This document shows, one piece after another, positions 3,340 through 62,688 of a stretch of 64,000 nt of DNA. The DNA lies in contig NC_092678.1 of the NCBI RefSeq assembly GCF_964355755.1, forward strand, positions 13,142,352 through 13,206,351, written 5' to 3'. This DNA is from Antedon mediterranea. Lineage: Eukaryota > Animalia > Echinodermata. How positions within the stretch are numbered: position 1 is the first letter of the stretch; each line of letters begins with the position of its first letter. Below the pieces are notes generated by a model that was not told the DNA's origin, ran no database searches, and saw nothing but the letters and a program-made list of their open reading frames with translations. Both the position numbers and the translations under genes were made by a program.

Positions 3340-3444
3340 GACGGAAACACCCCGCTGCATGAATATATGCGTTCAAATGAACCTACCTTAGAATTAGTGA
3401 ACTACCTCACGGAACAAGGTGCATCCGTATCAGCACTAAATAAG
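3340..3444 (+). CDS. Ankyrin exon, 105 nt, phase 0/0: DGNTPLHEYMRSNEPTLELVNYLTEQGASVSALNK
   Basis: tag|GAC...AAG|gtaata; fits G.TPLH...LE.V.YL...GA ankyrin consensus. Confidence 0.9.
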
Positions 3445-6400
3445 GTAATATGGGCTAGAGATAATTTATATGATTACACCTAACGTACGTATGATCTGGG
3501 CCGGAAACAGATCTTATCCACTTTATTTTATTTATTTTGATTGAGTTATTTATACTTACTTGCTGCAATAAATATTTAGTAGTAATTAAAAAAGATCCTA
3601 CAGTTATTGTGATATTGGTATATTGTTCAATGAAATTATTAATTTACCTATGTTTTATGTGGACATGTCATTATAAAATGGTTGAATTTAGGATCATGAC
3701 TGAAAGCAATATATAAACTACACGGGCGGTTATGATTTCTTTTATCACTAAAACTGCAAAATAATGGGAATGCACATACAATTTATATAATTAATTCGGT
3801 CTACGTTCACAAAATATGCACCAGCAAAACCTTTTATTTTAACTTCTTTGTGTATTATTTATCATTACTTTACTATAATTATTTGCTGCAATACACTGTA
3901 TGTATAAACTTCGTGATAATAATTTGTTCTCTATAGGACGGAAACAGCCCGTTGCATGAATACATGCGTTCAAATGAACCTGCCTTAGATGTAGTAAACT
4001 ATCTCACGAAGCAAGGTGCATCAATAACAGCACTAAATAAGGTAATATAGGGCTACAGATAATTTATATGACTAGATGGTACGCTCGCTTCGCTCGCGTA
4101 CCATCTAGGTCGTGCCCACAGATGGTTCTCGAATACATAATAATTTCAGCGTTAAAAAACTGGCGATTTCAAATGTACGTACCGCAGGACAATAATACAT
4201 GTCGTTTACAGGAACGAATAAATAGAGACTGTGATTTATGTACTGAACTAAAATTAGCACCCTGGGAATTACTTCCGAAAGAAAAACTTGTCACAAAATG
4301 AGTCAAATTTAAACAAACTTAATTTGTGTTTTGTATGTAACATTAGGGTTGAGGGATGGGAAAGAGGATGGGTGCAAAGAGGAACAGTTGTTAAATATAT
4401 TCTTTATCCATGTAGTAACGAAATATTAATTGTTTTCATGTTTTACAAATAATATACCACTAAACACAGTAAAACATTGTGATGTAATACTTTGTTGAAA
4501 CTATCACCGTCCTAGTCGATTGAAATAGTATAGTACATGTAACGATACATCACTACGACGTTTATAATATGTTTATATAATGTATAACAATTTGTGAAAA
4601 CCACCCCTATTCGTGGCAAATCATAAATTCGACTTAATCGTCAATAAATATTAAATTATCTAACTCAACTTAATTAGTAGGCCTAATGGTTTTCAATTGT
4701 TTCTTAGAGTTAATTCATACTTAAGTTGGTTCCTAACCCTACCCACCAAAGTTGTTCTGCGTTTAGGGCATGTGATGCACCGTAGGCCTATCTTCTACTG
4801 GCTTTACAACGCTACTCATGCCAGTGGGGGAAGGGTGATGATGTCACGTGGGTGGTTTAACTGCAATAATAAAGATTTGTACATAATATACGGCGACTGA
4901 AAACGCTAGCTCACTATCCGTTAAAAAAAAATCTATATCCAACCTCTGCAGCACAGATTGAAAAAAAAATGGATCGAATTTCTGTTATGAGTATACAGTA
5001 CTTGCCTTTACGACGCCTGAGGGAATAGACACTTGTGGAACAGAGATTGGAATGTTCCATTCATTTCAAATCAATACATTGGCATAAACGTATATTAAAT
5101 CTATCAAAATAGTATTTTTTAAAGAAAATTGGCCTGTCTTCAACATTATGATACTGTACTCGAGCTGTTCAACCGATTTTCAGCTATTAAAAACAATTAT
5201 CGTAGGAGGAGATAGGAAAATGCGAAGCCTCCTCGCATTTTTGTGGCGGGTATTTTTCAAGATGGACATCCATTAGACAGTGTATACCATGATCGGAAAA
5301 CACCCCTATTTGAGGCAAATCGTTGAACCTAAATTCGTTTTAATCGTCAATAACTAATTATCTAACTTAATTTAATTAGTTAACAGTGTTACATCAGGTG
5401 GTTAAAATCAGTACCGAAAGTACGAACCAACTTTATATACCATCGAGTAAAAATTCTAAAAGTAAGGCGCGATTTACCGAATTTAACCCTTACGTAAATT
5501 TATATATAGATTACACCTATAACGTACGTATGATCTGCAACGCACAAACATCTTATCCACTTTATTTTATATCATATTACAATTGATTGAGTTATTTAGA
5601 ATTACATACTGCAATAATTATTTAGTAGTAATTAAACAATAGTATACAGTAAAGCTTGGTTCCCACTAGAACGTAACGCAAGGACGTAAACGCAACGCAA
5701 GCGTTTTAACCAATGATAAGCGAAGTTATAGACAGTTAGCATTCACAAGCGAATAAGCCATCGCTTGTGATGGCTTATTCGCTTGTGAATGGTCAATTCA
5801 CTTGCGTTGCGTTACGTCCTTGCGTTGCGTCGCTAGTGGGAACCACGCTTTATTGTGAAATTGGTATATTTTGCAATGAAAGTATTAATTGAACTATGTT
5901 TTATGTGGACATGATTGAATTTAGAATCATGACTGAAAGCAATGTTCACGTTAACCTGTATGTAAACTACACAATTATTTTTTTTTTATCAGTAATATTG
6001 CTAAATAGTAAACAATTGATTCAATTCCGTCTACGTTCACAGCATATGCACCAGCAAAACCTTTATTTCAACTTCTTTGTGTATTCTTTATCTATAACTA
6101 TAATTATTTGTTTCAATAACATTTAAGTATACATTGATTGAGTTATTTAAAATTACTTGCTGCAATAATTATTTAGTAAATTAAACAATATTATACGGCT
6201 TTACCACGTTGAAACACCGGTTCTCGTCAGATCACCGAAGTTAAGCGACGTTGGGCCTGTTTAGTGCTTGGATGGGATACAATCTGGGAATATCGGGTGC
6301 TGTATATTTAGCTGGGGCCCATCAAGCATTTAAAATCAGCATTGCTGACAATTATGGCAGCCGCTGAATCTAGTATTTGCCTTTCTTCTGGTGAAGGTGG

Positions 6401-9400
6401 CCACAGGACGAGAGAAGCCCTTGATCAATGTTAGGCCCCATCAAAGTGCTTTAAACAGTCCTGGCTTTGTTAGTATCAAACATGTTAGTGGCGGTAATTA
6501 TCGGTGTTGGTTTCGATTGAATAAAATGAAATAAAAATAAAATAAAAATACAGTTATTGTGAAGTTGGTATATTTTGCAATGAAATTATTAATTTACCTA
6601 CGTTTTCTGTGGACATGTCATTAAAAAAGGGTTGAATTTAAAAGCATGACTGAAAGCAATGTTTACATTAACCTGTTGTATAAACTTAACCATTATGATT
6701 TTTTCCATTAATCATTGTAAACGAGAATCCACAGACAATCGATACAATTGAGTCTACGTTCACAGCATAATATGCACCAGCAAACCATTTTATTTAAAAT
6801 TGTTGTTGATTATTTATCATTACTTAAATATAATTATTTGCTGCAATGATATGTTTGTTGTATAAACATCTTGATTATACATTTTTTTTATAGGACGGAA
6901 ACAACCTACTGCATGAATACATGCGTTCTAATAAACCTACCTTAAAAATAGTGAAATATTTCACGAAGCAAGGTGCAACAGTATCAGCACCAAATAAGGT
7001 AACTTATAAGCACATGGTATTTTTCAAAAGGTAATCGAGAAGAACTGAAACGTGTTCAGAAAGAGAACTGAAGCTTGTTATAAGTTAATACAAACGAAAA
7101 ATTGAAAATAATGTTGTCAGTAATGACATGAAAAAGGTTTGGACAGGAATGCGGATAAAAATTGGTTATAAAGGATCGAATATGAAGAATAAAAACTATA
7201 AATTTGATAACATCAATAGGTTATGCAAATAGATTTGGCAATATTGATTTAAAAAAAAAACAAGATTAGCTATTAGTTAGCTCGTAGGATTTTGATATTT
7301 TGAATTTGACCTATTCTAATAGGTCAACTTCATAATCAAATATTTCCTGTTCATTAGTTAAAACTAATGAACAAGACGTCTTTGAATTATTCCGAAAGTT
7401 AAAACATTCCAAGGCACCAACCCCTGATAGTATACAATCCAAGGTACTTAAAGCATGTTGTTTTCAAATATCCTGGTGTATTTACAGTCATTTTTAATAC
7501 AAGAACATTTTTTTTTAATTGTGTTTCTTAACCAATTTTATATTTTAATACGTCCTTGTAAAACAATCATTTCATCAGACTTTTTCTGGCTTTTGTAAAT
7601 ATTTTATATATTAGATTAAAAAAAATAAATATGATGAAAATAACACAGATCAATTAAAATATATTGACTTTACTTCTTTTTAAATGACCATCACCTCTCT
7701 TAAGCGACCACTACCCCTTTATTTAATATAGTGACCACCACTTTTAAAGAACCACCACCTCTTGTAAGCGTCCATCACTTTTAAAGGATCACCACACGTA
7801 AGAAAGATGGTTTCTTACGATATATGTGTCACATTATAGTTTAAAGGACATTGGAAACCATAATCAATTTGCATTGCAACTTATGATTTAATTAGGATTT
7901 GCTTGTTAATTAAGATTGTTGATGCATGTTGTTTTTTTATATCGGGAGTCCTTATTGAAACAAGCTCTAGAGCTTATAGAGTTATCATCTTGCTCTCATC
8001 CTGCAATTTTATTATATGTTTTTGTAATACAGTATTGATATAAAACAAACAGACGTTCTGTCATTCTTTATAATTGTATGAGTAAAAAGTATGAGTATTC
8101 CTGTATCTGAAGTGTTTTGTAAACACAATATGTCTTATAATATTCATGTTGCATCTGCCACAAAACAACAACAATCAATCATGTTATCAGTTGTGTCTAA
8201 CAAAAAGAATAAGAATCCTAATTATCCTTATTATTAAAACTTCATCAGTTTGGCATTAATGGTACTTTATTCTCATGGTTTAAAAGTTATCTTGGCGGTA
8301 GGTTGCAGAGAGTAGTAATTGATGGTGCCACATCCAATTCTCTCCCAGTCATCTCAGGCGTGCCTCAAGGTTCCATTCTTGCCTCCCTGCTGTTCAATAT
8401 ATTTGTAAATGAAATACCAAATCTCTTTCAAAATTCCTACTGTCTTATGTTCGCTGAAGACCTCAAGATTTACAAAATTATTACCACCACTGAGGACTCC
8501 GTTGCACTTCAGGCAGATCTGGAAAGACTCAGTACGTGGGTTTCCGAATGGAAAATGTCCCTGAAGTCCGAGAAATGCAAAGTCCTGTCTTGCTCTCTTA
8601 AGAAAAACCTATTAGTTTCGCTTACTCTGTTCAAGAAGAAGTCATTGAAAGTGTAAACTCTTATCGGGACCTCAGCATTTTCATCGACCGTAAACTGACA
8701 TTTATTTCACACGTTGATCATGTTGTCAGAAAGGCCAAAAGGCTGCTTGGGCTGATGTGGCGCAATTGCAAACATTTCTCTCCATACACCAAACGTGCAC
8801 TTTATCTTTATCTTTCCCTCATCCAACCATCTTTCAATTTCTATTCAATTATTTACAACTCACTCTCTGTTTCTCAAGCCTCCAGAATAGATCGGACCCA
8901 TAACAAGTTTTTGCGCTTTGTCGGCCCAGGAGCCAACCTGCCTCCTATTGTTTCCCCGACATCTAGGAGAGCAAGACAGGATTTGCAATTCCTGTATAAA
9001 TTTCTTACTTCTAAGTTTTATTGTAATCTTGTTTCGTTTTTAGTCGGGTGAAAGCGACTCTATAGTTCACTATGTCGGTCGGTCGGTCGGTCTGTCGGTC
9101 TGTCGGTCTGTCTGTCGGTCCGGTATCACTATGCGTTTTATCGCTTTCTGACCTTATCTTGATATCAATTTAATCTAGCTAAGTTAATTTTTCACAGTAT
9201 ATTCCTTATGGCCAGGAATCGATGTGGTTATGTTTTCATGGTGCGCAATAAAAAATTACGCGGTCTACGCACGATTTAACGAAATTATGTTTGTAATCAT
9301 ATCTTCACAACCATGAATCACAATTAAATAGAATTTGGTACTAAAAAATTTCAGGGCATAAATCATCATATGGCAATACAATTACGTGCGTAGCGCATGT

Positions 9401-12400
9401 AACGCATGCGTACGCGCGCATAAAATTTTCAAAATTTATTTTCGATGAAATAAGAGTACGTTTCAGGCAATTTGAAGCGTTTACAAAATTGCCATGAGTC
9501 ACAAAGCCACAAAGTTACGCGCGCACGCGCATTTAAAATTTTAAAAAGCGCAAAATTCATTTTTAATCAACTTTCTACGCGTTTCTTGTCATTTTGAGCA
9601 TGTCAAAAATTCCCATACGCGCGCAAATTTTTACACGCGTGATGCGCACGTAGCGTTAAATACATACTTTTTTCGCGTGATTTATGTTTTTGCAGCCTTT
9701 TCTAATAATTTTACCATCTTTTAAACTATTTCGACTTAAAATTACGTCATACGATCACGTCGAATAGAGAGAAATGGCGAACCGCGATGACGTCACTCAA
9801 ATTTCACCGAGTGGGTATAGATTGTAAACAAACCATTTCGCCACATGTTTTTGTATGGGAAATTCCGATGGGTTGAGTTAAAAAGGTAGTTAGAAAAGAA
9901 CGTTTAAAACACACATAAAAGCAGTATCTTTTTTTTTGCAACACCCTTAACAATTTTAATGTTATATGGGCAAATCTTAACATATTTTATTTCAATTTGG
10001 ATTGAATTAAGACGCGTTTTTTTTGTTATATACTGTACCCAGCTCTAGGCCCTAGATAGTTTCGCTGATGCTGTGTAGTACCCTCGAGTAGGCCTACTCG
10101 AGCGAGCCTAGCACGGATTATCGGTTATTATAATAATAATAATAATATTGGAAATTCTTTATTGCATACTGTACTACTACTACTTTAGCTAGGGTGCTGC
10201 TAGGCCTCTCCTAGCTAGGTAGTAAGACTAAATAGAGCATCTCTAGTAGACGTAGGCCTAGCATTTAGTTTCAGCTTGACAACTGCCATTTTGTTATGTG
10301 GCTAGTGATGCTTCCTGCAGGGGGGCTACCGCCAGTAATGAATACTTGATAACACTATTCTACTATAATACTATAGGCCTAGTCTAATGTAGACCTACAT
10401 ATATGAGATATTTTTAGGAATATGATTGTGAATGATGGATGACTAAATACACAAATAGAAAAGAATTATGAGCGTTACAGCAACAACATTGGTTAGACGA
10501 CGCCATGATTCACGTGTATAAACATAGGAAATGTGCCGCCATCAACGGTTTGTTATGATTTTATACCCACTCGGATTTTAGACGTCGGTTCGCCATTTCT
10601 CTCTATTGGATAATTTGCGTACGTTTTTGATGAAAAAGTTAAAAAATTCGTCAAAATTATGCCTTTTTAGTCGCGTGGACGCGACTATAGTTCACTATGT
10701 CGGTCGGTCTGTCTGTCGGTCTGTCTGTCGGTCTGTCTGTCGGTCCGGTATCATTATGCATTGTAGCACGCAACTTAATGGCTGTTGGTCTTGTTTTATT
10801 TTAATGTTCCTTTGTAATCTTCGTAGTAAACCCCTTTTTTCATGTTAAATTTTCTCGTGTCAATGTTTGTAAATATGGTATTTTCTGTAGACTCTCGTCT
10901 TTGTACAATTCATGTTTTAAAAAAAAATTATTCTTTAGATATTTTTAACTGGAATTTCTCTCAATTTAAATGTATTATTAATGAAATTATTTAAATAATC
11001 TTATTTACATTTTTGTATATATTTATATTGGCTTATATTTATAGTTTAGTTATTTTATTTTCAACCTGTTATTGGTGTTTTACACTGTTGGCTTGAAATA
11101 AAGAATTAAATTTGAATTATATTTCATGTGTATGATTTATTCACAGAATGGATACACACCGATAAATATTTATCTGGATCGTGGTGATGTTAAATTAGAG
11201 ATATTGTACTGTCTGATAACCAATGGTGAATCACCCACATTACCAAAAAAGGTAATTTGACAAAAATGTAAATTTCAATAGTATATCATACTGATGCTTA
11301 ATGATAATTATTATGTTTTTCTTCGTTTTTTACTTCCAAACGTAAGAAGGTATTATACTACTGTATATGTTAATTATTATAAACATGATGCAACTTCTCT
11401 TGGTATAAATAATACATTTTAGCGACTTTCGATTAATTTGATTTAAAAATATTTATTTATTAAAAATATAACATTTTTTTTTTTTTAGGAAGGAAGCAAT
11501 GCTCTACATATACATCTAAGTGGTAGATATGTTAAACCTACGTTAGAAATAGTGACTAATCTCATTAAACTTGGTGTATCTCCAACATTACCGAATAAGG
11601 TAAAGTACATAAGAGTGGTCATATATTCCCGTGATCTAACATTGTATAATTATCGGATGGGACTCAAACACACCCCAGATCACTAGTGTTGTGTTCATAA
11701 CTCTATACCTGCATCAGAGTGGTTACAGCAAGCAAATACAGTTGGACACCTCTAACGTTTGTGGTACCGAGATTAAATCTCTAAATATGAAATGAAAATA
11801 TATATTTTTTTAATTATCCGCATCGTTTGTTTAATTTAATTTTTTATTGTATAAAATAAGTACGTATGATTTATAATGAACTTGAGAGAAAAGTGCCATA
11901 CGTAAGTAAAGTAGTAAAGTCGAAACCTAATGCTAACAGCCTTGGTGCCCATCTCTATTTCTTTAGCGTTTTGGCCAGGCTTATCGGGCTTATCACATCT
12001 TTATTACGTTTTACTAAGGCAAGAAAGGCGTATCATTATTTTGGTCACGTGAACGATATAAACACGTCACACGCGGAGCTACAAATTAGAATTCGGGGAG
12101 ATGTCCTATCAATCATCATTCAATATTACTGCGAAATTATGTTTGTTTTTCTGCCTTTGACCCCATTTAAACATTTAACTTGTTGGTGTGATGTTAATTA
12201 CAACAATGTCATCCAAATAATCAATAAGGATACGAATGAATTATGACTGGAAAAACACGCCGCGGAATTTTCTAAACGTTTCTATTCCAGTACGAATACT
12301 ACTTTTAATTACAACCTAACTATCTCATATTGCATCATGCATAACACTCAACATCTCCTTACCACAATACTAATTTTCGAATAGATTCCAATATATTCAT

Positions 12401-15400
12401 GGAATGAGCTACTGTTATTTTTTAAGTTTAATAATAAATTTCGTCATAATAATTTTTTTTCTCTATATAGGACGGAAACACCCCGCTGCATGAATACATG
12501 CGTTCAACAAATAAACCTACCTTAGAAGTGGTAAACTATCTCAGGAAACAAGGTGCTTCAATAACAGCACAAAATAAGGTAATAGAATTAAGCTTGGTTC
12601 CCACTAGAACGTAACGCAAGGACGTAAACGCAACGCAAGCGTTTTAACCAATGACAAGCGAAGTTATAGACAGTTAGCAATCACAAGCGAATAAGCCATC
12701 GCTTGTGATTCACTTGCGTTGCGTTACGTCCTTGCGTTGGGTCGCTAGTGGGAACCACGCTTTACGCATATAACGTACGTATGATCTGCACCGCAAATAT
12801 ATCTTATCCACTTTATTTTGTATCATATTACCATTGATTGAGTTATTTAGAATTACTTGCTGCAATACTATCTATATTATCTTATTTTAGGAACAAATGT
12901 AAGTAATTTTACCAATTCGATGTTTACCACTTCGAGTGAACATTTTGAAAACATTCAAAACACATACATATGTGTCTTGGCTATACTAAAATAGCTTCCC
13001 AGTTGGCTACATCATAATCGGAGTTACCCTGGAACCATCAACTTCAACCAACAAACACATAAAAAGTTTAATTACTAAAGATGGGAGCTTAGCAACGAGC
13101 CCAATTGATATTTTAAAGGAACAAATACAACATTTCGAAGGTTTATACGCAAAATTCTATTATAAACAAGCTTTCAGAAATAGAAAAAGAAAATTGTGAA
13201 GGTTACGTCACTATTGATGAATGTAAAAAGGCCATTTCAATGATGGAAAAAAATAAAACACCTGGATCGGATGATCTAAGTGTTGAATTTTATGTGTTCT
13301 TTTGGAATAATATTAAACATTTAATTTGCGATGCGTTAAATGAAAGTTATAATTCTCAAGAATTATCCTTTTCGCAAAAACGAGGTGTAATCACCCTTTT
13401 GTTCAAGGATGGAGAAAGAGAAAATTTGAATAATTGGCGTCCCATTACCCTCTTAAACACCGATTACAAAATTCTTGCACATGTATTAAGTAACAGACTT
13501 AAAATGGTTATTAAATCAATAGTAAGTTCAGACCAAAAAGGTTATATAAAAGGCCGTTTCGCTGGTGAAAACATTCGGTTAATAGAAGACCTGCTTTATT
13601 ATACAGAGTGTAATGATATCGAAGGGGCAATAATTACCGTAGATTTTAAGAAGGCTTTTGACTATATTAGTAGAGATTTTATGTTCAATGTTCTATAAAC
13701 GTTTAACTTTGGAATGTTCTTTTGTAACTGGGTAAAAGTATTATACAATAACGTTGAATGGGTCACAGTTAACAATGGTTGGGTTTCAAACAATTTTAAA
13801 ATGGAAAGAGGTATTAGACAAGGTTGTCCTCTATCTGCTCTGTTATTCATTTTAGTGGTTGAAGTAATGGCATCTAGAATAAGAAACAGAGATGACTATA
13901 AGGGTATTAAACTTCCAAATAATGAAAATAACATAGAATAAGCCAATTAGCCGATGATACTGTTTTGTATGTTGGTAATGACAAAAGTATTAAGTCAGCA
14001 GTCAGTGTAATTGAACGTTTTTGTGAAGTATCTGGAATGACACTAAATAAAAAAAAAACCAATGTTTTTTGGATTGGTAAATGGAAGAACAGAATAGATA
14101 GACCTTTAGAATTAAATTGGGTAAAACACCCGATCAAAATTTAAGGCATATATGTAGGGTATAATACAGAAGAATGTACCAGAAAAAAACTGGGATGTTA
14201 AATTAATAGAGCTAGAAAAGACTTTAAAACAATGGAATGCTAGAAATCTCTCAATTTTTGGTAGAATAATAATCCTGAAAAGTCTTGCACTATCTAAATT
14301 AACATATGCTGCAAATATCACTGATGTTCCAAAATATGTATATACACAAGTTACAAATCTAATATATAATTTTATTTGGAACAATAAAAGGGAAAAGATA
14401 AAAAGAAAAACTATAATTGGTGATGTTGAGATGGGAAGCATTAAAATGCCTGATTTTACTCTTCATGTTAACGCACTCATGTGTGGCTGGTTAAAAAGAA
14501 TTATGAATGATAATGGTGCTAAATGGAAAAATATTCCAATGTATTATATTAAAAAAATATGTGATGTTAATGTTTTACTTAATATGTCATGTTATAACAT
14601 TATTGATGTTAATTCTGATAAAATTCCACTGTTTTACAAAAATATGATAAAAGCCTACATATTATAACAGAATCTCAAAAAAAAAACTTGAAACTTATAA
14701 CGATATAATGAATGAGCAACTGTGGGGAAACCACTACGTTAAACTAAAAAAAAAATCGCTTTTCTACAAGCATTGGATTGACAGTGGCATTATCAGTATT
14801 AAAGACATTGTTAATAAGAAAACTTTTTTAACATCAAACGAAATACTGGTGAAACTACAATGTAAAACAAACTGGTTAGTGTGCAAATACAAATGAGTAT
14901 TTGTGCATTATTAAGGCAATACCAATTCAATGGAAACGTATTATTAAGGAGGTAGATATTTTCAATTGTGATGATAATGATGAATTAGTTGGGACCAAGT
15001 ATGAGATTAATACTACCAAACTAATATACTCATGGTTTGTGAAAGAATATTTCATTATTCCAATGTCACAACTCAAATGGGAAGAGTACTTCAATGATAA
15101 CAACATTGATTGGAAAACCTCTTAGTTACGGAAAGTATGTAAAATGAAAGATAAGAAACTAGCACAATTCAATTATAAGATGTTACATAGAATACTGCCT
15201 ACCAACAAACGGCTGTATCAGTGGAAAGTTAAGGAAACACAAACGTGTGACAAATGTGGAGAAATTGAAAATGAAAATCATTTGTTTTTTAGTTGTAGAT
15301 TTATTCAGAAATATTGGAGGAAAATGCTTAGTATCTTTGTAAGTTTAAATCACAATAATATATCATTTAAACAATTAATACTAGGAACGGGAGATAAGCT

Positions 15401-18400
15401 AATAGATTATATTTACACTTTTGCAGCATTTTCTATTTATAGAATAAAAATGTTATCTGCACTAAATAAGCCAGTGGGTAAATCTTTATGGAATTCATTT
15501 AAAAGCAATATGTTATATAACATTGAATGTGAAACATATAACAATAAAGAAACAAGTATAGAAAAATGGGTAGCTTTAAGAAATAAGATTATGATAATAT
15601 AATTTCTAATTTGATACGATTAACCGAAAAAGAATTACAGTGATACGGGTTACTGTTGGTACTGAGCTATTATTGTTTTTTTTTATCATGTATATAAATA
15701 TATTGTATAATCCGGGTTGTAAAATGAAAACAAACAAATGAAAATGTGTGAACTATTTTAAAACGGGATAGATGATAATGATGATCCTGTCAAGTGTATA
15801 ACAAAATATAAGAAAATTTATGAAAAAAGGAGTAATACAGAATTCATATATGTAAAAATGTTACTTATGAACTGTAACGACATTTACAAGTTAAATAATA
15901 CGATTTTATGTAATATGAGATAATATGAATGTGAATAAAAGTGGTGTTTGCGCCACAAAAGAGAAAAAAAAAAACTTCAAACAATATGTTCTAACCAAAT
16001 TTAAAAAACCGCACAAATACACAATTGACGCGTATGCTTATAATGTGGGCTGAAATTGTTTAGTACGCAAATTACGTAGATATTTGATATACTTTTATGT
16101 TTATAGGAAGGAAAAACAGCAGTATCTGTTTTAGAAGAAAATGCGCAGATAGAACAAACAGAAAAACACATGATTTTAGAATATTTTGACAGTAAGTTAA
16201 AAATACCATATCAAACTAAATTAAAGTATATTTAAATTTAAAGTTTTACATACAACCATGAATTTGTAAACCTAAATGATACATGTATGTTATGCGTTTT
16301 TTTAATTATTTATAATTAGAACTGCTAGTTCCTCCAGAAATATTTGCCATGGGTAAAGAGGCTATTAAGATATATAAAGATGAATTGAAAGATGGTAAAA
16401 TTGCAGTTGTGAATTCAAGATGTATGTTTCTTGGAAAGGAAGGTGCTGGCAAGACAAGCTGCGTAAAGTCCATGCTTAGAGAGAGGTAAACAAAATACAA
16501 ATTACACAAATTAACATCTTACCCTACTGAAAGAAAACGAAATAAAATAAAATATAAAACATATTAGGCTAATATTTTTAATCAATTATTTCAATGTAAA
16601 TATATACGTGTATTATGTTTACTAATGGTTATAATATACAGATTTTTTTTATTTTTTTTTAATTGTGTATTTGTATCAACTAGTTTGATAATTTAAATTC
16701 GTGTTGGATGTAATGGATAAAAGTATTTTGTTTTAACGTCAACGTACATGTTTACAATAGATTCAACCCCAATGAACCATCGACGGATGGTATAGTTACA
16801 GCCACCGTGTTTAAAGCAACTGGAGAGAGTAAATGGAAGAAGATTAAAGAGGAAAACGGTAAAGATAATGTGATTACTCAAACTCTAAATGTTTGTCTTA
16901 CGTTATCATCATTATTTATATTTCTTTAAAATTGATAACATCTGTATCTGGAATTTTGGAATTGTTTAAAAGACATCACACGGTAATAGGCATACAGGTT
17001 AAAATTAATTCCTTTCTCATAAACTCCTAACAATAACTTTTTATGCGATACCGTATTAATTCTTTGCCAATTTGTTTATTTGTACAGATACTGAGCTAAC
17101 CAAGAAAATTCGTAAAAATGCATTAGTGAAGAGAGTTGACAACGAGTTAAAACAGGGTATGTACAAAAAAAATAATTGAACCTTGTTTAACACTTGAATG
17201 CATCATTCACCTTTCATTTATAAATGATGATAAACGAGACTGTAGATTCGATATTGTGGAATAAAACAATACCCTAGACGATAGTATAAAAATGCTGAAA
17301 TTCAACAGTTTTATTTACGATCACCATGAGATAAAAAATTACATGATTAATATCAATTTAAAATATTAAAAACATTAAACATTAGACATTAAAAAGTTAC
17401 AAATAAAAAGTACCGGCAATAGTAAATTATAGGATAGGATTTAAATAAAAAATGACATAATATAAAGAGGGTAAAATAGATTTACAATAATGATGGGTAA
17501 TGCTTCTATTGTATCGCTCGAAAATATGATTTCATTATTTTTACAGCTGCAATATGTTCTCTCGATTTCGTTTTGTCGACATTATATTTTTTTCTCAACA
17601 TCATTTCATTTCATGTTATTTTCGTGACCTTAAAAAAAAATAATTATTTGTAATATAAGTTTGAAATATAAGACTTCTCTCGAATAATTTCTTTTTATTT
17701 TATTAACATTTGAAAAAAAAACAAGCATCCGTGAAAACCCCGGACAGCAGATTAAATTATTTTTTTGTGTTTTTGTTTTATCCTGTAATAGAAATCAGTG
17801 AAAACCGAAGCTCCTTGAAAAAAATTAAAGATTTTGTAAGAAGTAAAATAGGAAAAGATGATTCAGAGAGCATTCCAAATGAAATAACTAGCATATGGGA
17901 CTACGCTGGTCAATTGGACTACTTCATAACACACAGGGTATGCTTATCAATATGTCAATTATTAAAATAAGTAGCATACTAACGTGTGTAAACAGGATGT
18001 ACATTGCATTTGACATTATCCTTAACATCAGATAGGCGTAATGTCGATATTACTGTTACCAAAATTGTATATCCATACCAGCCTATTTTCTGCCGTAACG
18101 TAACCATTCCATTCAATATGATTAATAATTCTTCATTATTATACTATATCGTGGTCAACACAAGCTTAATGACAAACACATGTAAATGTTATGAAATCTT
18201 TGACTATGTAAAAATGCTATTATATACATATTAGGTTACGTAAATATTGCTGTAAATATTTTTCAAAACGTAGTTTGCTTTGTCTTAACTGCAATGAAAC
18301 GATTATAATATGTACCATTTTAACATTAATCAGTTTACATATACTCGTCTCAGAATACAATATTTCCGATAGCATTGCGTCGACAAATGATATGATATAG

Positions 18401-20849
18401 TCAAATATACATATAAATTCAACGCCAAAAATATGCGAAAGATGTTCAGAAGGAACTTTAAAGCAGAAAATAATGAAAATTCTCGTATTCATAATTATTA
18501 CATTTCAGATATATTCTAATTGTCGTTTTGGCGATTGAAGCATTCTCCGTCATAATCGATCCTCATAGTTGCCAAAAATATCATAGACCACCATGCACCT
18601 ACCATAAACAAGATCTTAGTAACAAGGCCATATACATGGCTGCAGTCGCGTGCTCAAGTTAGTGTTTACCGACCAACCGACATATACCCCTTTTACACCA
18701 CCAAGCTTATAACAAACCCGTGTTGTGTCTGCATACATTTCCTTTTCACACCTGATTCATAAAACGGGGATGACACGGGTTGCGTGTATTTACGCTGCAA
18801 AATACCAACCCATGTAAATGTTCTAGATCAATCGAAATATCTCCCTCTCACGCATGAAGAGACGCCATAGTAACGGTTTGCTGATAATACCTCCCACAAT
18901 TTTGTTTTATGGCAATACACACACAAATTACGTCTACTCGGGAAGAATAATATCTTGAAATAAAAATGAATAACAAATAACAATAAGTTTTAATTATTAA
19001 ATAAGCGAATAAACAAAATCAATCTTATCCTAATTTTATTTAAATTAGATACTATAGTGGGCGAGGATAGTAAACAAACGAGTAAAGATACGCTGAGCGT
19101 TTTACACCGCAAACACAGGTTCATCCTGGGTGCGTCTCCCGGGTTGACTTGAGGGAGAATGCTCCAACCGCCCCAAAATGAGATTCCAAAAATCATTATA
19201 TCCTACATGAATTGTCTGTGTTTTGTTCAGTTTTTCCTCACAAATACAGTATCGTACTGCGTTGCGTTTAGTGCGTTGGATAAATTAGACGAACAAGCTA
19301 AAATACGAGATCCAGCATTGGTAAGTTTACTAAGTTAGATTATGCTATTATATTAAAATGTAATATTAATAGTTTAATAATAATGTACGTTGGCTATGTT
19401 ATACAATAATAGTATAATATCCTTTTAAATCCATTTTACATTTAAATTTAGGGTCCGTTAGGATTGACTAATTTGGACATAATTCTGTTCTGGGTAAGGT
19501 CAGTATATGAACATACTGTGGCACAATATGCTTCAGGAAACACCATTTCAATTGATGGCAAAGTGATAAAATCGCCTCCCATCAGTTTGGTTGCTACTCA
19601 TATAGACAAATTGCCAGGGAGAAGAACATCAGAAAAGCTGAAAGAGGTAATAGCCACAATAAAATAGACAGATAGAAATATAAATAGATATTGATTATTT
19701 CTGTCTACTAGATTATAACAGTGTTTTAATGAAGTAGCAGTATGTAAATACATAATTAATATACAGGTACTATAAAGAGCAATGGTCCTAACGTTGAGTA
19801 TTACAACATGCATAAATATTATACTATAATATAAAAACAAAATTCCTGCTGGCTTTTTTTTGGGAGAAAAACAAAGTGTATACATTTGTGAGTCGTTAAA
19901 AATCATCAATACATACTGTTATACGTTTGATTAACGGTTTCACAAGACAATTGAAATATTAGGCAAACATCTATCACATCAATAAAAATAATAATACCAT
20001 AAAAAAAGTGTAAGTAAGTAATGATTAGTGCCGGGATTAGTGCTTCAACAAACACAAAAGTGTATAATGATATTATGATAAGAAAATTATAGGTGTTTAA
20101 ATGAATGGTTTGTGTTGCAGGCTATGTACTAAATTGGACAGCCAACTGTTTATCGACATGTTTTTAGACTTATAGCTTGAATAGTGTGTGTCCGCAAATA
20201 TATCTTTCTCACAAAGTGTTTCAATTCAATTGTAGTATTGAACCGTATTTACTGTATTATGTAAATATTCAACCAAACGGTTACATTGGGTTTTTTCAGT
20301 ATTGACACGACCGTGGTTGTAGGCATAGTATGTATAGACATAGGACATCTCACGTAATATCAGTTATTTAGCTTCGTATCATCTGGACCGCTATGCAGTG
20401 CATGTAGGCTTACATACGATTTCTCATTTAAAAATATTAATCCACTGAAACATTGAACATTGAATTTTGAATTGACAGACTTTAGCAGTAGGTATGGTTG
20501 GCAACATTAAACACACACTGCAATATATTACAGTTAAAAGGTATTCATTTTTTATAAACGTAAACTGTAACAATATAAATACAGGTACTGTTATTATTTG
20601 AAGGTTCAGAATATGTATCAGACCATTTTTGCTAAAATGGAAAGAATGGAATATGCCGAGCATGTAGATCGTGAAATGTACATGGTCAACAACACGGTGA
20701 AATCACACGAAGGTATTGAGAAACTTAAGAGAAACGTTGTGAAATACATGGATGTAATAGGGACGAAGGTAATTCCTCTAAAGTGGCTTGATTTTCAGGA
20801 AAGATTGCAACAAATTGGAAAAACAAGACTGTGCATTACATTTAATGAG
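3340..20849 (+). CDS. Ankyrin-repeat ROCO protein (6 ANK + linker + Roc GTPase + start of COR); 14 exons, 578 open codons, both ends missing
   Basis: Exons with AG/GT ends and compatible phases: 3340-3444, 3937-4041, 6894-6998, 11147-11251, 11489-11599, 12471-12578, 16107-16191, 16320-16485, 16761-16858, 17088-17156, 17792-17937, 19231-19320, 19452-19646, 20604-20849 (1734 nt, no stop). Motifs: VPPEI pre-Roc, G1 GKEGAGKTS, switch I STDGI, G3 WDYAGQ..Y..TH, G4 VATHID, COR entry IPLKWL. Confidence 0.88.
3937..4041 (+). CDS. Ankyrin exon, 105 nt: DGNSPLHEYMRSNEPALDVVNYLTKQGASITALNK
   Basis: tag|GAC...AAG|gtaata; starts 597 bp after the previous exon, with paralogous flanking intron. Confidence 0.9.
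4072..5510 (-). mobile_element. Non-autonomous Helitron (family 1), full length
   Basis: Minus strand starts TCTATATATAAATTTACG and ends in a hairpin plus CTAG; inserted between A and T of atatgA|Ttacacc with no TSD (empty site visible at ~3465-3480). Confidence 0.85.
5653..5849. mobile_element. MITE, PIF/Harbinger-like
   Basis: TIRs AGCTTGGTTCCCACTAG / CTAGTGGGAACCACGCT, flanks TAA/TTA; second copy at 12591-12761. Confidence 0.8.
6193..6550 (+). mobile_element. 5S rRNA-derived SINE (SINE3 type) with (TAAAA)n tail
   Basis: 6193-6305 is a mutated 5S rRNA (TACGGC..TACCACGTTGAAACACCGGTTCTCGTCAGATCACCGAAGTTAAGC...GGGAATATCGGGTGCTGTA), followed by a ~220-bp body and A-rich tail; body and tail recur at ~32440-32685. 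Confidence 0.85.
6894..6998 (+). CDS. Ankyrin exon, 105 nt: DGNNLLHEYMRSNKPTLKIVKYFTKQGATVSAPNK
   Basis: tag|GAC...AAG|gtaact. Confidence 0.85.
7020..7500 (+). mobile_element. Decayed LINE fragment, Rex1/Babar-like
   Basis: Remnant peptides YKRKIENNVVSNDMKKVWTGM and ELFRKLKHSKAPTPDSIQSKVLKACC. Confidence 0.55.
8220..9037 (+). mobile_element. 5'-truncated CR1/Jockey-group LINE reverse transcriptase; probable 3' tail resumes at ~10795-11110
   Basis: SWFKSYL..RLQRVVIDG...SGVPQGSILASLLFNIFVNE...MFAEDLKIY (degenerate YADD), with frameshifts. Confidence 0.85.
9038..10794 (+). mobile_element. Helentron-associated (DINE-1/HINE-like) element, composite
   Basis: T-run flanks, 5' stem-loop AGTCG..CGACT, (GTCG/GTCT)n microsatellite, 3' GCACGC(G/A)ACT plus short hairpin ending TTG|TTTT; related copies at 36785-37643, 38175-38622 and 18621-18682 (minus). 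Confidence 0.7.
9763..10607. mobile_element. Non-autonomous DNA transposon, ISL2EU-like, nested in the HINE
   Basis: TIRs AATAGAGAGAAATGGCGAACC / GGTTCGCCATTTCTCTCTATT; the empty site cgaattgga at ~37497 implies an AT TSD; shares GTGGGTATAGATT(T)GTAAACAAACC with 23644-24448. Confidence 0.7.
11147..11251 (+). CDS. Divergent ankyrin exon, 105 nt: NGYTPINIYLDRGDVKLEILYCLITNGESPTLPKK
   Basis: cag|AAT...AAG|gtaatt, open, phase 0/0. Confidence 0.8.
11489..11599 (+). CDS. Divergent ankyrin exon, 111 nt: EGSNALHIHLSGRYVKPTLEIVTNLIKLGVSPTLPNK
   Basis: poly-T ag|GAA...AAG|gtaaag; paralogue at 33714-33815. Confidence 0.85.
12471..12578 (+). CDS. Ankyrin exon, 108 nt: DGNTPLHEYMRSTNKPTLEVVNYLRKQGASITAQNK
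   Basis: tag|GAC...AAG|gtaata; carries a one-codon in-frame insertion. Confidence 0.88.
12591..12761. mobile_element. MITE, PIF/Harbinger-like (copy 2)
   Basis: Same TIRs as 5653-5849, TTA on both sides. Confidence 0.8.
13052..15972 (+). mobile_element. 5'-truncated L1/Tx1-clade LINE (RT, zf-RVT, 3'UTR, polyA), frameshifted
   Basis: KTPGSDDLSVEFY, NWRPITLLNTDYKIL, RGIRQGCPLSALLF, SQLADDT, CDKCGEIENENHLFFSC; AATAAA plus A-tail; candidate TSD AACTTCAA(C/A)CAA at 13040-13051 and 15973-15984. Confidence 0.92.
16107..19646 (+). CDS. Linker and Roc GTPase exons of the ROCO gene
   Basis: EGKTAVSVLE...LLVPPEIFAMGKEAIKIYKDELKDGKIAVVNSRCMFLGKEGAGKTSCVKSMLRERFNPNEPSTDGI...SIWDYAGQLDYFITHRFFLT...TNLDIILFWVRSVYEH...PPISLVATHIDKL. 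Confidence 0.92.
20604..20849 (+). CDS. Roc C-terminus / start of COR exon (last exon found)
   Basis: YMVNNT...GIEKLKRNV...VIPLKWLDFQERL...CITFNE|gtaaat. Confidence 0.85.
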
Positions 20850-37643: not shown

Positions 37644-39199
37644 TTAGGATCAAACACGTATGGAAACATGCTTCCATAATGCAGTTAGTAATCAGCGCAA
37701 AGTTGTGTCTTGATCTAACTGGGTACCCATTTCTACACCTGGGTGGAGGGAGAGAGGCAAACGTAAGTAAAGTACTTTACCTACGGATACAAGAAATGCG
37801 AACCTCGGTCTCACGATCAGTAGTCTAACGTCCAATACACTGTGTCACACGCCCTCGCCTTATATGATTAGACCTATAAAAGTACGTATGATCTGCACAG
37901 CAAACATATTTAACATATTATAATGTAATGAGTTGTTTAAAATCATTTGGAAGTAAAATTGCACAAGATTCTAAAGTTTTAATGATATAAATGTCATTAT
38001 AAAAAGTTTGAATTTAGAAACGTGACTGAAAGCACTTAACGATTATGATTTTTTTTCTGTAACCTTTCAAACGAAAATCCACAGGCAATCGATATAAATG
38101 AGTCTACGTTCGCAGCGTATGCACCAGCAAACCCGTTTATTTAAAAATGTTGTTTATTATATATAATTATAGAACCCCATAAATTTCAGGGCATAAATCA
38201 TCATATGGCAATACAATTACGCGCGTAGCGCATGTAACGCATGGGTACGCGCGCTTAAAATTTTCAAAATTTATTTTCGATGAAATAAGAGAGTACGTTT
38301 CAGGCAATTTTAGCGTTTACAAAATTGCCATGAATGCGCAGATTTTTGCGCGCGCACTGGGCGTTAAATGTTATTACGCACTCTTCTTGCCCGATTTTTG
38401 TTTTCTTTACTTACTTTTTAACTCGAAATTACGTTATACGAGCACGTCAAAAGTGACAGGCTACGCCGTTGTATATTTAAAAAAAATATAAATGTTTTTA
38501 AACATTTTAACATTTATAAACATGTTCAGCAATTTCGGTCAGTTGGTAGGTTGGTCGGTCGGTTGGTCGGTCTGTCGGTAAACACCAATGAGCACGCGAC
38601 TGTAGCCATCTATATGACCTTGTTGAAGGATCATCCCCTCTCTTAAGCGACAACCTCTTTTAACGATCATTATCCTGTTATTAAATTGTGTGAAAACATC
38701 TTTTAAAGAACCACCACCTATTGTAAGCGTCCATCTCTTATATAAAGGATCACCACACGTACGAAAGGTGGTTGCATACGATGTATAAGTCACACAATAG
38801 TTTAAAGGAAATTGCTAACCGTAATAAATTCAAATTATACACTTATAGTACATGGGCTGGGAGGGGTCCTCTTGTACCCCATCCCCACACATCTCTATAT
38901 TTTTTGTATTTTTATGTACCTATATATCCGGTGAACTAAAAAATAGATGTTAACATCAAATATCCTCATTCCCGAGATGGATTTTTAACGGATTTTTTAA
39001 AAAGATTTAATTTCGTATTTGTTACCAATGTTGGGGGAGGGGGTAATACAAATAGGCATAAGTACAGTTTTCCTTGAACAAATCATTCATTTTTTATATA
39101 AATGTATGAGTATTGTCTGCTCTACAAGTTGATATAAAATATGTGGTAATTAAATAATTAATGACATTACAAAAGGTCACAATTTTTTTTGAAGCCTTT

Positions 39200-40692: not shown

Positions 40693-40797
40693 GACGGAAA
40701 CACCCCGCTGCATGAATACATGCGTTCAAATAAACCTACTATAGAAGTAGTAAACTATCTCACGAAGCAAGGTGCTACAGTAACAGCACTAAATAAG
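40693..40797 (+). CDS. Ankyrin exon (cluster 2): DGNTPLHEYMRSNKPTIEVVNYLTKQGATVTALNK
   Basis: tag|GAC...AAG|gtaata, 105 nt. Confidence 0.8.
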
Positions 40798-41293: not shown

Positions 41294-41398
41294 GACGGAA
41301 ACACCCTGCTGCATGAATACATGCGTTCAAATGAACCTACATTAGAAGTAGTAGACTATCTCACGAAGCAAGGTGCATCCATAACAGCACTAAATAAG
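41294..41398 (+). CDS. Ankyrin exon (cluster 2): DGNTLLHEYMRSNEPTLEVVDYLTKQGASITALNK
   Basis: aag|GAC...AAG|gtaata; starts 601 bp after the previous exon. Confidence 0.78.
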
Positions 41399-41897
41399 GT
41401 AATATAGGGCTACAGATAATTTATATGATTACACTTATAACGTACGTATAATATGCGCCGCCAACATATCTTATCCACATTAATTTATATCCTATTACAA
41501 TTGATTGAGGTATTTATAACTACTTGCTGCAAAAAATATTTAGTAGTAATTAAACAAAATCTTACAGTTATTGTGAGATTAGTATATTGAGCAATACAAT
41601 TATTAATTTAACTGTTTTATGTGGACATGTCATTATAAAATAGTTGAATTTAGTATCATGACAGAAAGCAATGTTCACATTAACTTGCATGTATAAACTA
41701 CACGTTTATGATTTCTTTTTTCAGTAAAATTGCAAAATAAGGGAATGCACATACAATTGATATAATTCGGTCTACGTTCACATCATAAATGCCCAAGCAA
41801 AACCTTTTATTTCAATTTCTTTGTGTGTTATTTACCATTACCTAACTAAATTATTTGCTGCAATACACTGTATGTATAAACTTTGTGATAGTAATTT

Positions 41898-41955
41898 AAA
41901 CCTACATTAGAAATATCTCACGAAACAAGGTGCATTAGTAACAGCACTAAATAAG
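41898..41955 (+). pseudogene. Broken ankyrin exon (acceptor and 5' part deleted, plus a small internal deletion)
   Basis: AAACCTACATTAGAAATATCTCACGAAACAAGGTGCATTAGTAACAGCACTAAATAAG|gt inside a third tandem cassette. Confidence 0.8.
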
Positions 41956-60649: not shown

Positions 60650-60912
60650 GTTATTTTACTTATTTAGTTTAACCCATGTTATGTAAATTTTTTATATTGT
60701 TATTTCTTTATTTTTTTAATTCATTTATTTATTTATTTATTTTCTTTTTCCGTGTTGTTTTTATCTAATCTTTGTTTAGGCATGTCTGTCACAAGCTTTT
60801 TGCTTTTTTGATCATGCCTTCTTCAATCATATTACCTTTCTTTACACCATTTTGTTGACTGTTTTATTTTGAAGAAAATAAATGTTACTTTGACTTTGAC
60901 TTTGACTTTGAC
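60650..60912 (+). mobile_element. LINE/SINE 3' tail ending in (TTTGAC)n
   Basis: ACAAGCTTTTTGCTTTT stem-loop region, AATAAA, then four TTTGAC units. Confidence 0.55.
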
Positions 60913-61986
60913 TTACATGAATAGGCCTATGATCTGAATCACAAACATTTCTATTTCACTTTATTTTTGTGTCATCTAATATTAAATGATAGACCATACT
61001 GCAAACGAGTGTCGATTAATGCAAGTTAAGTGCACTAACAAGAACAAATCTATCTATTTTGTATGGAAGGCTGCACTCAATTTTAAGTTTATCTGGAGAT
61101 ATTTAGCTTTTAAAACGTATTCACGGAATTTTTACTATGTTTAAAATTAATTTAGTAATTAAATAGTATATAGTGTATGGTAATGATAGTTTATTATTAT
61201 CGGTCTTATCATATCTTTATTACGTTTTACTAAGGCAAGAAAGGCGTATCATTATTTTGGTCACATGATCGATGTAAACACGTCACCCGCGGAGCTACAA
61301 ATTGGAAGGATGGTCATTCCATATTAAATTTACGGCGAAATTATGTTTCTTTGTCTTTTGTTTTTGACCCCATTTAAAAATTAAATGTTTTGGTGTGATG
61401 TTACTTACAAAAATCATCCAAATAATCAATAAATAAGGACAAGAATGAATTATGACCGGAAGAACACGCCGCGGAATGTTCAAACGTTTCTATTCCAGTA
61501 CGAATACTACTTTCAATTACAACCTAACTATCTCATATTATTGCATCTTGCATAACACTCAACATCTCCTTACCACAATACTAATTTATGGTATGTGGTA
61601 CTGGTATTTGTTACGTTTAATAGTCCTTTTATGATACACTGGCTTCGAATGTTGATAATTTTATTTTATTTTACGAACAAATTTAAGTAAACTTACCAAT
61701 TTGATGTTTACCACTTCGAGTGAATATTTTGAAAACATTCGAAAGCACATACATATGTGTCTTTGCTATACTAAAATAACTTCCCAGTTGGCTACATCAT
61801 CATCGGAATCACTCCGGAAATAAGGGAATTCACAGAAAATTGATATTTTTCAGTCTACGTTCACAGCATAACACCAGCAAAACATTTCATTTCAATTTCT
61901 TTGAGTATTATTTATCATTGCAAAACTAAAATGATTTGCTGCAATAACCTGTATGATTTAACTTCATGATTATAATTTCTTGATAG

Positions 61987-62091
61987 GACGGAAACACCCC
62001 GCTGCATGAATATATGCGTTCAAATGAACCTACCTTAGAATTAGTGAACTACCTCACGGAACAAGGTGCATCCGTATCAGCACTAAATAAG
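61987..62091 (+). CDS. Ankyrin exon (cluster 3), identical to 3340-3444
   Basis: tag|GAC...AAG|gtaata. Confidence 0.88.
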
Positions 62092-62583
62092 GTAATATGG
62101 GCTAGAGATAATTTATATGATTACACCTAACGTACGTATGATCTGGGCCGGAAACAGATCTTATCCACTTTATTTTATTTATTTTGATTGAGTTATTTAT
62201 ACTTACTTGCTGCAATAAATATTTAGTAGTAATTAAAAAAGATCCTACAGTTATTGTGATATTGGTATATTGTTCAATGAAATTATTAATTTACCTATGT
62301 TTTATGTGGACATGTCATTATAAAATGGTTGAATTTAGGATCATGACTGAAAGCAATATATAAACTACACGGGCGGTTATGATTTCTTTTATCACTAAAA
62401 CTGCAAAATAATGGGAATGCACATACAATTTATATAATTAATTCGGTCTACGTTCACAAAATATGCACCAGCAAAACCTTTTATTTTAACTTCTTTGTGT
62501 ATTATTTATCATTACTTTAGTATAATTATTTGCTGCAATACACTGTATGTATAAACTTCGTGATAATAATTTGTTCTCTATAG

Positions 62584-62688
62584 GACGGAAACAGCCCGTT
62601 GCATGAATACATGCGTTCAAATGAACCTGCCTTAGATGTAGTAAACTATCTCACGAAGCAAGGTGCATCAATAACAGCACTAAATAAG
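62584..62688 (+). CDS. Ankyrin exon (cluster 3), identical to 3937-4041
   Basis: tag|GAC...AAG|gtaata. Confidence 0.88.

What the first reader, a model, noticed from the sequence alone, without database searches (positions are those of the whole stretch)
3340..62688. Modular ankyrin-ROCO locus: one-repeat-per-exon phase-0 cassettes duplicated, deleted and reshuffled around a Roc-COR GTPase
Seen: 11 intact ankyrin exons (105-111 nt, all phase 0/0, all ending AAG|gt) plus several broken ones, all on the + strand in three clusters. The HEYMRS-type exons sit in a ~600-bp exon+intron unit (spacings 597 and 601 bp) whose intron is strongly conserved between units. Cluster 1 splices in frame onto an intact Roc domain, and any subset or order of these exons keeps the frame. 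Established: ROCO genes with shuffled single-repeat LRR exons have been proposed as diversified immune receptors in the brown alga Ectocarpus. Inference: this is an animal, ankyrin-based analogue, a variable ligand-binding array generated by unequal crossing-over, gene conversion and/or exon skipping and coupled to a GTPase switch. I do not recognise it as a described system.
Basis: partly seen in the sequence, partly recalled or inferred. Interest (0 to 1): 0.9.

Follow-up and report, generated by a model that had tools for sequence, protein, structure and literature searches.

The report
Feather-star ankyrin-cassette ROCO gene cluster
Eleven tiny exons, each coding one ankyrin repeat, lie in copied and partly deleted blocks around a GTPase gene that breaks off early; it is likely a damaged copy from a large feather-star family of probable immune-sensor genes whose binding end gains and loses modules between generations.

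Summary
There are 11 intact phase-0 ankyrin exons (105-111 nt), a ~600-bp exon+intron unit, several broken units, and a 14-exon, stop-free 578-aa ankyrin-Roc frame. Four corrections. (1) COR stops after about 25 residues; no COR body, effector or start exon is in the window. (2) Cluster 3 is a 99% copy of cluster 1's start, with identical exons. (3) Intron similarity (79-88%) equals synonymous-site similarity (81%), so it reflects recent duplication. (4) The repeated HEYMRS cassettes are invariant on the binding face (dN/dS 0.46) and show no mosaic signal. Relatives are crinoid ankyrin-Roc-COR proteins with swapped DED, Death or HEPN ends, expanded separately in Antedon and Anneissia, with 1-8 repeats per gene model; one paralogue is variable on the binding face. 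One probably-RNA run shows ankyrin exon-exon joints from a related copy; ankyrin-to-Roc splicing and exon skipping are not shown. Verdict: an animal, ankyrin version of the brown-algal exon-cassette ROCO design, diversifying by germline birth-and-death; this copy is probably truncated. The scan noted a similar design in a mussel.

The parts
1780..1912 (+). degenerate ankyrin-exon remnants (two fragments, with stops)
   Evidence: nhmmer E 7.9e-8 and 0.026; self-BLAST
2265..5372 (+). block copied at 60911-64000; 2551-2940 and 3011-3172 are the flanks of exon 12471 without that exon
3340..3444 (+). ankyrin exon A1 (HEYMRS type), 105 nt, phase 0/0
3937..4041 (+). ankyrin exon A2 (HEYMRS type), 105 nt
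5497..6191 (+). cassette unit that has lost its exon (pre-exon intron joined to post-exon intron near 6120-6133)
6894..6998 (+). ankyrin exon A3 (HEYMRS type, most diverged; TP motif changed), 105 nt
11147..11251 (+). ankyrin-like exon B (divergent type), 105 nt
   Evidence: no Pfam hit alone; aligns with relatives' repeats
11489..11599 (+). ankyrin exon C (divergent type, like repeat 3 of P0037), 111 nt
12471..12578 (+). ankyrin exon D (HEYMRS type with one extra codon), 108 nt
16107..16191 (+). C-cap/linker exon, phase 0/1
   Evidence: 71-82% identical to P0018/P0019
16320..16485 (+). Roc exon with the P-loop (GKEGAGKT)
   Evidence: 98% to P0018
16761..16858 (+). Roc exon with switch I (PSTDG)
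17088..17156 (+). Roc insertion exon
17792..17937 (+). Roc exon with switch II (WDYAGQ)
19231..19320 (+). Roc exon
19452..19646 (+). Roc exon with the G4-like motif (ATHID)
20604..20849 (+). last exon found: end of Roc plus first ~25 residues of COR-A; ends in phase 0; read-through meets a stop after 9 further codons, AATAAA at 20935
33714..33815 (+). broken C-type ankyrin exon (5' end and acceptor missing); start of cluster 2
34756..34860 (+). ankyrin exon E (HEYMRS type), 105 nt
35360..35377 (+). first bases of a further exon, cut off by a repeat element (35378-35843)
37991..38169 (+). orphan pre-exon intron piece of the cassette
40693..40797 (+). ankyrin exon F (HEYMRS type), 105 nt
41294..41398 (+). 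ankyrin exon G (HEYMRS type), 105 nt, AAG acceptor
41897..41955 (+). broken HEYMRS-type exon (acceptor and 5' part deleted); the same deleted form is in run X5
60911..64000 (+). near-identical copy of 2265-5372 (21 substitutions, 4 indels), runs off the window
61987..62091 (+). ankyrin exon identical to A1
62584..62688 (+). ankyrin exon identical to A2

Best explanation
The window holds one ankyrin-Roc gene copy whose COR and effector exons are absent, plus ankyrin exons that likely belong to neighbouring copies, in a crinoid-expanded family of likely intracellular sensor-switch-effector (immune or cell-death) proteins. Shown: each ankyrin repeat is one phase-0 exon; exon+intron units have been duplicated, deleted and interrupted; relatives have 1-8 repeats and DED, Death or HEPN ends. 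Inferred mechanism: misaligned meiotic recombination between the 79-88% similar ~600-bp units adds and removes whole repeats without breaking the frame, and larger tandem duplications make and break gene copies (birth-and-death). In intact members the ankyrin stack would bind a foreign or damaged-self protein, shift the Roc-COR nucleotide/dimer cycle and release the C-terminal death-fold or RNase effector (inferred from architecture). Binding diversity likely arises between repeat types and paralogues, not among the HEYMRS cassettes, which are uniform on the binding face. The copy at 3340-20849 is likely truncated: a young pseudogene, a donor of cassettes, or a short ankyrin-Roc form.
For: Exon anatomy and 578-aa frame. 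17 of 17 and 2 of 2 hits are Antedon mediterranea models, up to 94% identical. 27 Roc-COR relatives: 11 Antedon, 16 Anneissia. A tree of 35 of 50 sequences splits by genus at 100/100, pointing to separate expansions. C-terminal ends differ: DED (below Pfam's cut-off, E 2e-7 to 2.5e-5), HEPN_DZIP3 (above cut-off), Death, ZU5, second Roc-COR. PMC8195603 describes bacterial repeat + AP-GTPase/COR + variable-effector proteins as conflict systems. In P0008 variation concentrates at binding-face positions (entropy 1.04 vs 0.36, P=0.008). Exon-less and broken units and a 0.7%-diverged block copy. A ~305-bp unit absent from this window occurs in all 4 runs laid. Exons show purifying selection (dN/dS 0.46). 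Run X5 (RNA status a guess) has an exon-end to exon-start joint, and exon/intron depth 158 against 2.6-5.7 in the other 3 runs. COR absent.
Against: No immune function was tested. No mosaic blocks were detected among 4 units (p=0.87). HEYMRS cassettes are invariant on the binding face, unlike the brown-algal and fungal cases. P0017 shows only a weak binding-face excess (P=0.07). The X5 joint involves an exon end not present in the window, so it speaks for a paralogue or allele. Roc exons here are intact and 84-94% identical to relatives, which fits a still-functional gene if COR lies beyond 64000. Relatives are automatic gene models, many fragmentary, so repeat counts may be wrong. The entropy test ignores shared descent and uses recalled DARPin positions.
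Confidence: 0.6

Rival explanations
1. Active diversifier: this locus makes many receptors per animal by skipping or recombining ankyrin exons, possibly somatically, ahead of a working Roc-COR switch.
For: All exons are phase 0/0 with matching ends. Brown-algal ROCOs show alternative splicing of single-repeat exons. Spliced ankyrin-ankyrin joints exist in X5. Exons B and C differ from the HEYMRS type on the binding face.
Against: No COR or effector in the window. Swapping HEYMRS cassettes would barely change the binding face. No skipping joint in the listed rows. No inverted exon copies as in Ectocarpus.
Confidence: 0.15
2. Neutral churn: symmetric exons in a transposon-rich region duplicate and decay by chance; the family has a non-immune signalling or scaffold role, and repeat number is not selected.
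For: Intron similarity equals synonymous similarity. Many broken units and mobile elements. Star-like relations among units. The closest relatives' models are fragments of 212-523 aa.
Against: dN/dS 0.46 in the exons. Binding-face variability in P0008, and separate expansions with swapped death-fold or HEPN ends in two genera.
Confidence: 0.15
3. One long intact gene or an assembly effect: the phase-0 end at 20849 splices on to COR exons beyond the window (or through clusters 2-3 to a second Roc-COR), and/or block 60911-64000 is the other haplotype placed in tandem.
For: Exon 20604-20849 ends in phase 0 with a good donor and joins exon 34756 without a stop. P0005 has two Roc-COR units. The block copy differs by only 0.7%. 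Run X1 shows first-copy alleles only, and contig depth 10-11 over the shared block, the same as 10-12 in unique stretches (depth is a weak measure).
Against: It needs an intron of more than 43 kb holding another copy's exons. The window has no N gap, and the two copies have unrelated left flanks. In relatives COR follows Roc directly.
Confidence: 0.1

Closest known systems
Brown-algal LRR-ROCO genes (Ectocarpus, Saccharina; PMC3341825, PMC11378527)
   Same: N-terminal repeat sensor with one repeat per symmetric-phase exon before Roc; broken exon copies among live ones; gene birth and death; repeat number varies among paralogues.
   Different: Ankyrin, 105-111 nt, phase 0 here, against LRR, 72 nt, phase 2. 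No inverted exon copies here. The exon travels with its ~500-bp intron. No positive selection seen in this locus's cassettes. Relatives add DED, Death or HEPN ends. Alternative splicing not shown.
Crinoid ankyrin-Roc-COR-DED/HEPN gene models (Antedon mediterranea P0001-P0020, P0037; Anneissia japonica P0021-P0024, P0038-P0049), almost all named 'uncharacterized'
   Same: Same Roc clade (nearest P0001, P0003, P0019; 84-94% identity), same HEYMRS repeats (P0018, P0019) and the same linker.
   Different: The window copy lacks the COR body, effector and start exon, and has a mixed array with types B and C that P0018 and P0019 lack.
Fungal NLRs with highly conserved ANK/TPR/WD repeats (PMC4986451, PMC13449251)
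   Same: Nucleotide switch plus a repeat sensor with near-identical repeats that are gained and lost, probably by unequal crossing-over; variable effector domains.
   Different: STAND ATPase with C-terminal repeats there, ROCO GTPase with N-terminal repeats here. Fungal repeats are hypervariable on the concave face; this locus's HEYMRS repeats are not.
Bacterial LRR + AP-GTPase/COR + variable-effector conflict proteins, and animal DAPK1 (PMC8195603, PMC6337361)
   Same: Repeat sensor, Roc-COR switch and a death or toxin-type end. DAPK1 is a ROCO protein with a death domain (its ankyrin repeats are recalled).
   Different: No kinase in these crinoid proteins; expanded multi-copy family; exon-cassette construction.

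Membership tests
ROCO GTPases | Roc G-domain with G1-G5 motifs | tested here: met
   GKEGAGKT, PSTDG, WDYAGQ and ATHID lie in one open frame; G5 was not assigned with confidence. P0018 and P0019 (89-98% identical over the P-loop exon) pass Pfam Roc. Single window exons gave only weak P-loop hits.
ROCO GTPases | COR domain directly after Roc | tested here: not met
   Only ~25 residues of COR-A are in the window; the COR profile finds nothing and the controls work. Met in relatives. So: ROCO-derived and probably truncated; not filed as an intact ROCO gene.
ROCO GTPases | GTP binding/hydrolysis and COR-dependent dimer cycle | not testable with these tools
   Biochemistry needed. PMC6337361 passages: removing C-COR makes the bacterial protein monomeric.
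Ankyrin repeat proteins | 33-38-residue helix-turn-helix repeats matching the Ank profile and fold | tested here: met
   6 of 9 distinct exons pass the cut-off. A model of P0018 has paired helices (pLDDT 57-79 over the repeats) and matches DARPin structures at E 1.4e-7.
Brown-algal-type exon-shuffling ROCO receptors | one repeat per symmetric-phase exon ahead of Roc | tested here: met
Brown-algal-type exon-shuffling ROCO receptors | repeats are LRRs (72-nt exons) | tested here: not met
   They are ankyrin repeats; analogue, not member.
Brown-algal-type exon-shuffling ROCO receptors | inactivated or inverted repeat exons among live ones | tested here: inconclusive
   Broken and exon-less units yes; inverted copies no.
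Brown-algal-type exon-shuffling ROCO receptors | diversifying selection on the binding face | tested here: not met
   For the 7 distinct HEYMRS exons: dN/dS 0.46 and an invariant binding face. Paralogue P0008 does show a binding-face excess at protein level (P=0.008); no codon test was possible.
Brown-algal-type exon-shuffling ROCO receptors | intra- and intergenic recombination mosaics | tested here: inconclusive
   Junctions and deletions are visible; incompatibility test p=0.87 on 4 units.
Brown-algal-type exon-shuffling ROCO receptors | alternative splicing of repeat exons | tested here: inconclusive
   One probably-RNA run shows exon-exon joints only; no skipping can be read from short contigs.

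The most novel reading that the evidence does not exclude
Marine invertebrates (crinoids here, mussels in an earlier scan note) have an undescribed class of cytoplasmic immune receptor: ankyrin-Roc-COR-death/HEPN proteins whose binding arm is built, like a natural DARPin library, from single-exon cassettes that are recombined between gene copies and combined by splicing, with truncated copies such as this one serving as cassette donors.
Probability: 0.3. Interest if true: 0.78.

Novelty: new variant of a known kind. Interest (0 to 1): 0.5.

Why it matters
If intact members work as inferred, ROCO GTPases act as an NLR-like receptor class in echinoderms. The exon-per-repeat design known from brown algae would then have arisen again in animals with a different repeat. 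That gives a testable model for how invertebrates diversify intracellular sensors without antibodies, and a natural setting for the sensor-to-Roc-COR switch studied in LRRK2 and DAPK1. The family is annotated almost entirely as 'uncharacterized', in fragments. This particular copy is probably damaged, so its value is as a record of the turnover.

Tried and rejected
No whole genome is held, so loci could not be counted. No RNA holder was listed on record; X5 is only a guess. Laying 3000-21300 at 87% was swamped by repeat elements: no ankyrin-to-Roc joint in the 15 rows shown of 770, which is no evidence either way. The junction at 60911 could not be seen because records are cut at a repeat there. 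Searches for a start exon with the N-termini of 3 relatives, and for COR/DED exons, found nothing credible. 'Intron under special constraint' was rejected. 'Cluster 3 is independent reshuffling' was rejected: identical exons. The mosaic test was negative and weak. The Roc part of the P0018 model was low-confidence (pLDDT under 50) and not used. The PDB search with P0017 listed only ankyrin-region matches in the 60 of 282 rows shown. P0032, a bacterial hit, is spurious. Literature searches listed no paper on crinoid or echinoderm ankyrin-ROCO cassettes; the library lacks most subscription papers, and no supplements were read. Street 2006 on introns in repeat proteins is not held; that ankyrin repeats often coincide with exons, as in vertebrate ankyrins, is recalled. 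Scan look-ups by place, sequence and crinoid words were empty.
Full report
OBSERVATION. A mechanical scan for open ag..AG|gt exons of 99-117 nt gave 23 candidates; 11 are ankyrin-type, all on the + strand, at the coordinates given. Of the 9 distinct ones scanned, 6 pass Pfam's Ank cut-off, 6894 falls below it, and 11147 and 11489 give no hit alone. Exon 11489 is hit by relative P0008 (E 0.003) and resembles a repeat of P0037; 11147 rests on length, phase and alignment. Start-to-start spacings are 597, 601 and 597. A DNA profile adds broken copies at 33718, 41861 and 1841, and no convincing minus-strand copy. Self-BLAST shows units that have lost their exon (near 6120-6133, and between 2940 and 3011), a unit cut at 35360 and an orphan intron piece at 37991. 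Six ankyrin exons, a linker exon and seven further exons to 20849 give 578 codons without a stop.

CORRECTION 1: NO COR. The last exon holds the end of Roc and about 25 residues of COR-A. tblastn with 17 relatives found no further exon, nor did the C-terminal parts of the closest ones at relaxed settings. A profile of 330 residues of COR from 8 of 14 relatives scored at best E 1.7 over six frames, whereas control profiles recovered the 30-, 65- and 82-residue exons at E 2e-13 to 6e-46. No start exon was found. The 43 kb after 20849 hold mobile-element pieces and ankyrin clusters 2 and 3. [quoted passage not shown]

CORRECTION 2: CLUSTER 3 IS A COPY. 60911-64000 matches 2265-5372 with 21 substitutions and 4 indels in 3111 columns, and its two exons are identical to 3340 and 3937. 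The window has no N and the left flanks differ, which favours a real recent tandem duplication. However, run X1 shows only first-copy alleles, and contig depth 10-11 over the shared block is the same as in unique stretches. Depth is a weak measure here. The block is either variable between animals or a haplotype placed in tandem.

CORRECTION 3: THE INTRON IS YOUNG, NOT CONSTRAINED. Four near-complete units are 88-91% identical in the exon and 79-88% in the intron; synonymous sites are 81% identical. Their 22 informative sites are star-like, with no mosaic blocks (p=0.87; low power).

CORRECTION 4: WHERE THE VARIATION LIES. The 7 distinct HEYMRS exons have pooled dN/dS 0.46. A model of the close relative P0018 puts HEYM in the first helix and the variable sites in the second (ankyrin fold confirmed). 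The ankyrin binding face is the inner helix plus the hairpin (PMC4986451, passages; exact DARPin positions recalled). On those 7 positions the window's cassettes have entropy 0.16 against 0.51 elsewhere (P=0.04 for lower). The 8 repeats of paralogue P0008 show the reverse (1.04 vs 0.36, P=0.008), and the 4 of P0017 a weak excess (P=0.07). These tests ignore shared descent. Trading HEYMRS cassettes would change arm length more than specificity; specificity differs between repeat types (B, C, HEYMRS) and between paralogues.

WHAT IT BELONGS TO. The last exon found 17 proteins, all named Antedon mediterranea, 59-94% identical; an ankyrin exon found 2 more. The window is therefore likely from a feather star of or near that genus. 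A Roc-COR query found 27 proteins, 11 Antedon and 16 Anneissia. A tree of 35 of 50 sequences (15 with under 170 residues of the region left out) separates the two genera at 100/100 and places the window with P0001, P0003 and P0019: separate expansions. Full models are ankyrin-Roc-COR followed by DED (below Pfam's cut-off), HEPN, Death, ZU5 or a second Roc-COR, with 1 to 8 ankyrin repeats in the 8 models where the profile found any. The five nearest models lie on a contig of one length (26.06 Mb) and are fragments of 212-523 aa, so broken or poorly annotated copies are common in this subfamily.

EXPRESSION. In one search (90% likeness), X5, whose RNA status is a guess, has one contig running from an exon end straight to an exon start (back 105), and 3 records whose loose ends before the acceptor read as an ankyrin exon end. 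X1, X6 and X8 show no such joint in the listed rows. Exon/intron depth is 158 in X5 against 2.6-5.7 in the others. The upstream exon end is not in the window, so this suggests the family is transcribed and spliced repeat to repeat; it does not show this locus, a link to Roc, or skipping. X5 also holds the deleted cassette seen at 41897, and all 4 runs hold a ~305-bp unit absent here.

MECHANISM. Shown: symmetric single-repeat exons, unit duplication and loss, variable repeat number and effectors in relatives. Inferred: unequal crossing-over between similar units, and larger duplications, drive germline birth-and-death; intact proteins act as repeat sensor, GTPase switch and death or RNase effector, the plan described for bacterial AP-GTPase conflict proteins (PMC8195603, passages) and for HEPN fusions (PMC3710099, passages). 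Confidence 0.6. Rivals: active within-animal diversifier 0.15, neutral churn 0.15, one long gene or assembly effect 0.1.

COMPARISON. It works like the brown-algal LRR-ROCO genes (PMC3341825: abstract and section 15; PMC11378527: abstract, passages and section 11) but is not a member: ankyrin instead of LRR, phase 0 instead of 2, no inverted exons, no diversifying signal in the local cassettes. Fungal NLRs with conserved repeats are a second analogue (PMC4986451 and PMC13449251, passages). PMC6321704, PMC8683736, PMC9779670 and PMC7314423 (passages) added nothing specific. Nine searches listed no description of this crinoid family; the library is incomplete. That ankyrin repeats often map to single exons is recalled and lowers the surprise. 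An unchecked earlier scan note reports the same design in a mussel, and another reports old fixed single-repeat exons in a Roco kinase; neither was tested here.

VERDICT. A real feature and a new variant of a known kind; this copy is probably truncated; interest 0.5.

Noticed in passing
window 13040-15975 +: Decayed LINE (RT and zf-RVT hits) in the intron between the last ankyrin exon and the linker exon; poly(A) end and a possible 8-bp target duplication.
   Followed up: partly
window 44645-59776: About 15 kb of nested inverted repeats: three related copies in alternating orientation at 78-89% identity, with inverted 345-bp tandem arrays at 56266-59191. Foldback-like; it separates clusters 2 and 3.
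   Followed up: no
window 6191-6308 +: 5S rRNA copy (Rfam 86.8 bits) inside a cassette intron, followed by a repeat also seen at 32443-32688; possibly a 5S-derived SINE.
   Followed up: partly
window 20892-21104 and 21261-21473: 213-bp direct duplication at 99.5% identity starting 43 nt after the last COR exon; may mark the event that cut the gene.
   Followed up: no
window 24400-25050 - and 8222-9050 +: Integrase (rve) fragments of an LTR-type element, and a second RT fragment.
   Followed up: partly
window 33985-34260 +: tRNA-like SINE-looking insertion in the intron after the broken C-type exon, with a reverse copy at 37640-37862 (class recalled, not tested).
   Followed up: no
contigs laid on window 62439-62712: All 4 runs hold a shorter ~305-bp exon+intron unit that is absent from this window, under both organism labels.
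   Followed up: partly
proteins P0008, P0017, P0005: Relatives carry long low-complexity tandem repeats between COR and DED or between two Roc-COR units; P0005 ends in a hydrophobic stretch that may be a membrane anchor.
   Followed up: no
proteins P0021, P0030, P0046: Anneissia relatives fuse Roc-COR to a DZIP3-type HEPN domain, a candidate RNase effector. The passages of PMC3710099 read list ankyrin, NACHT and Death fusions, and the word ROCO does not occur in its main text.
   Followed up: partly
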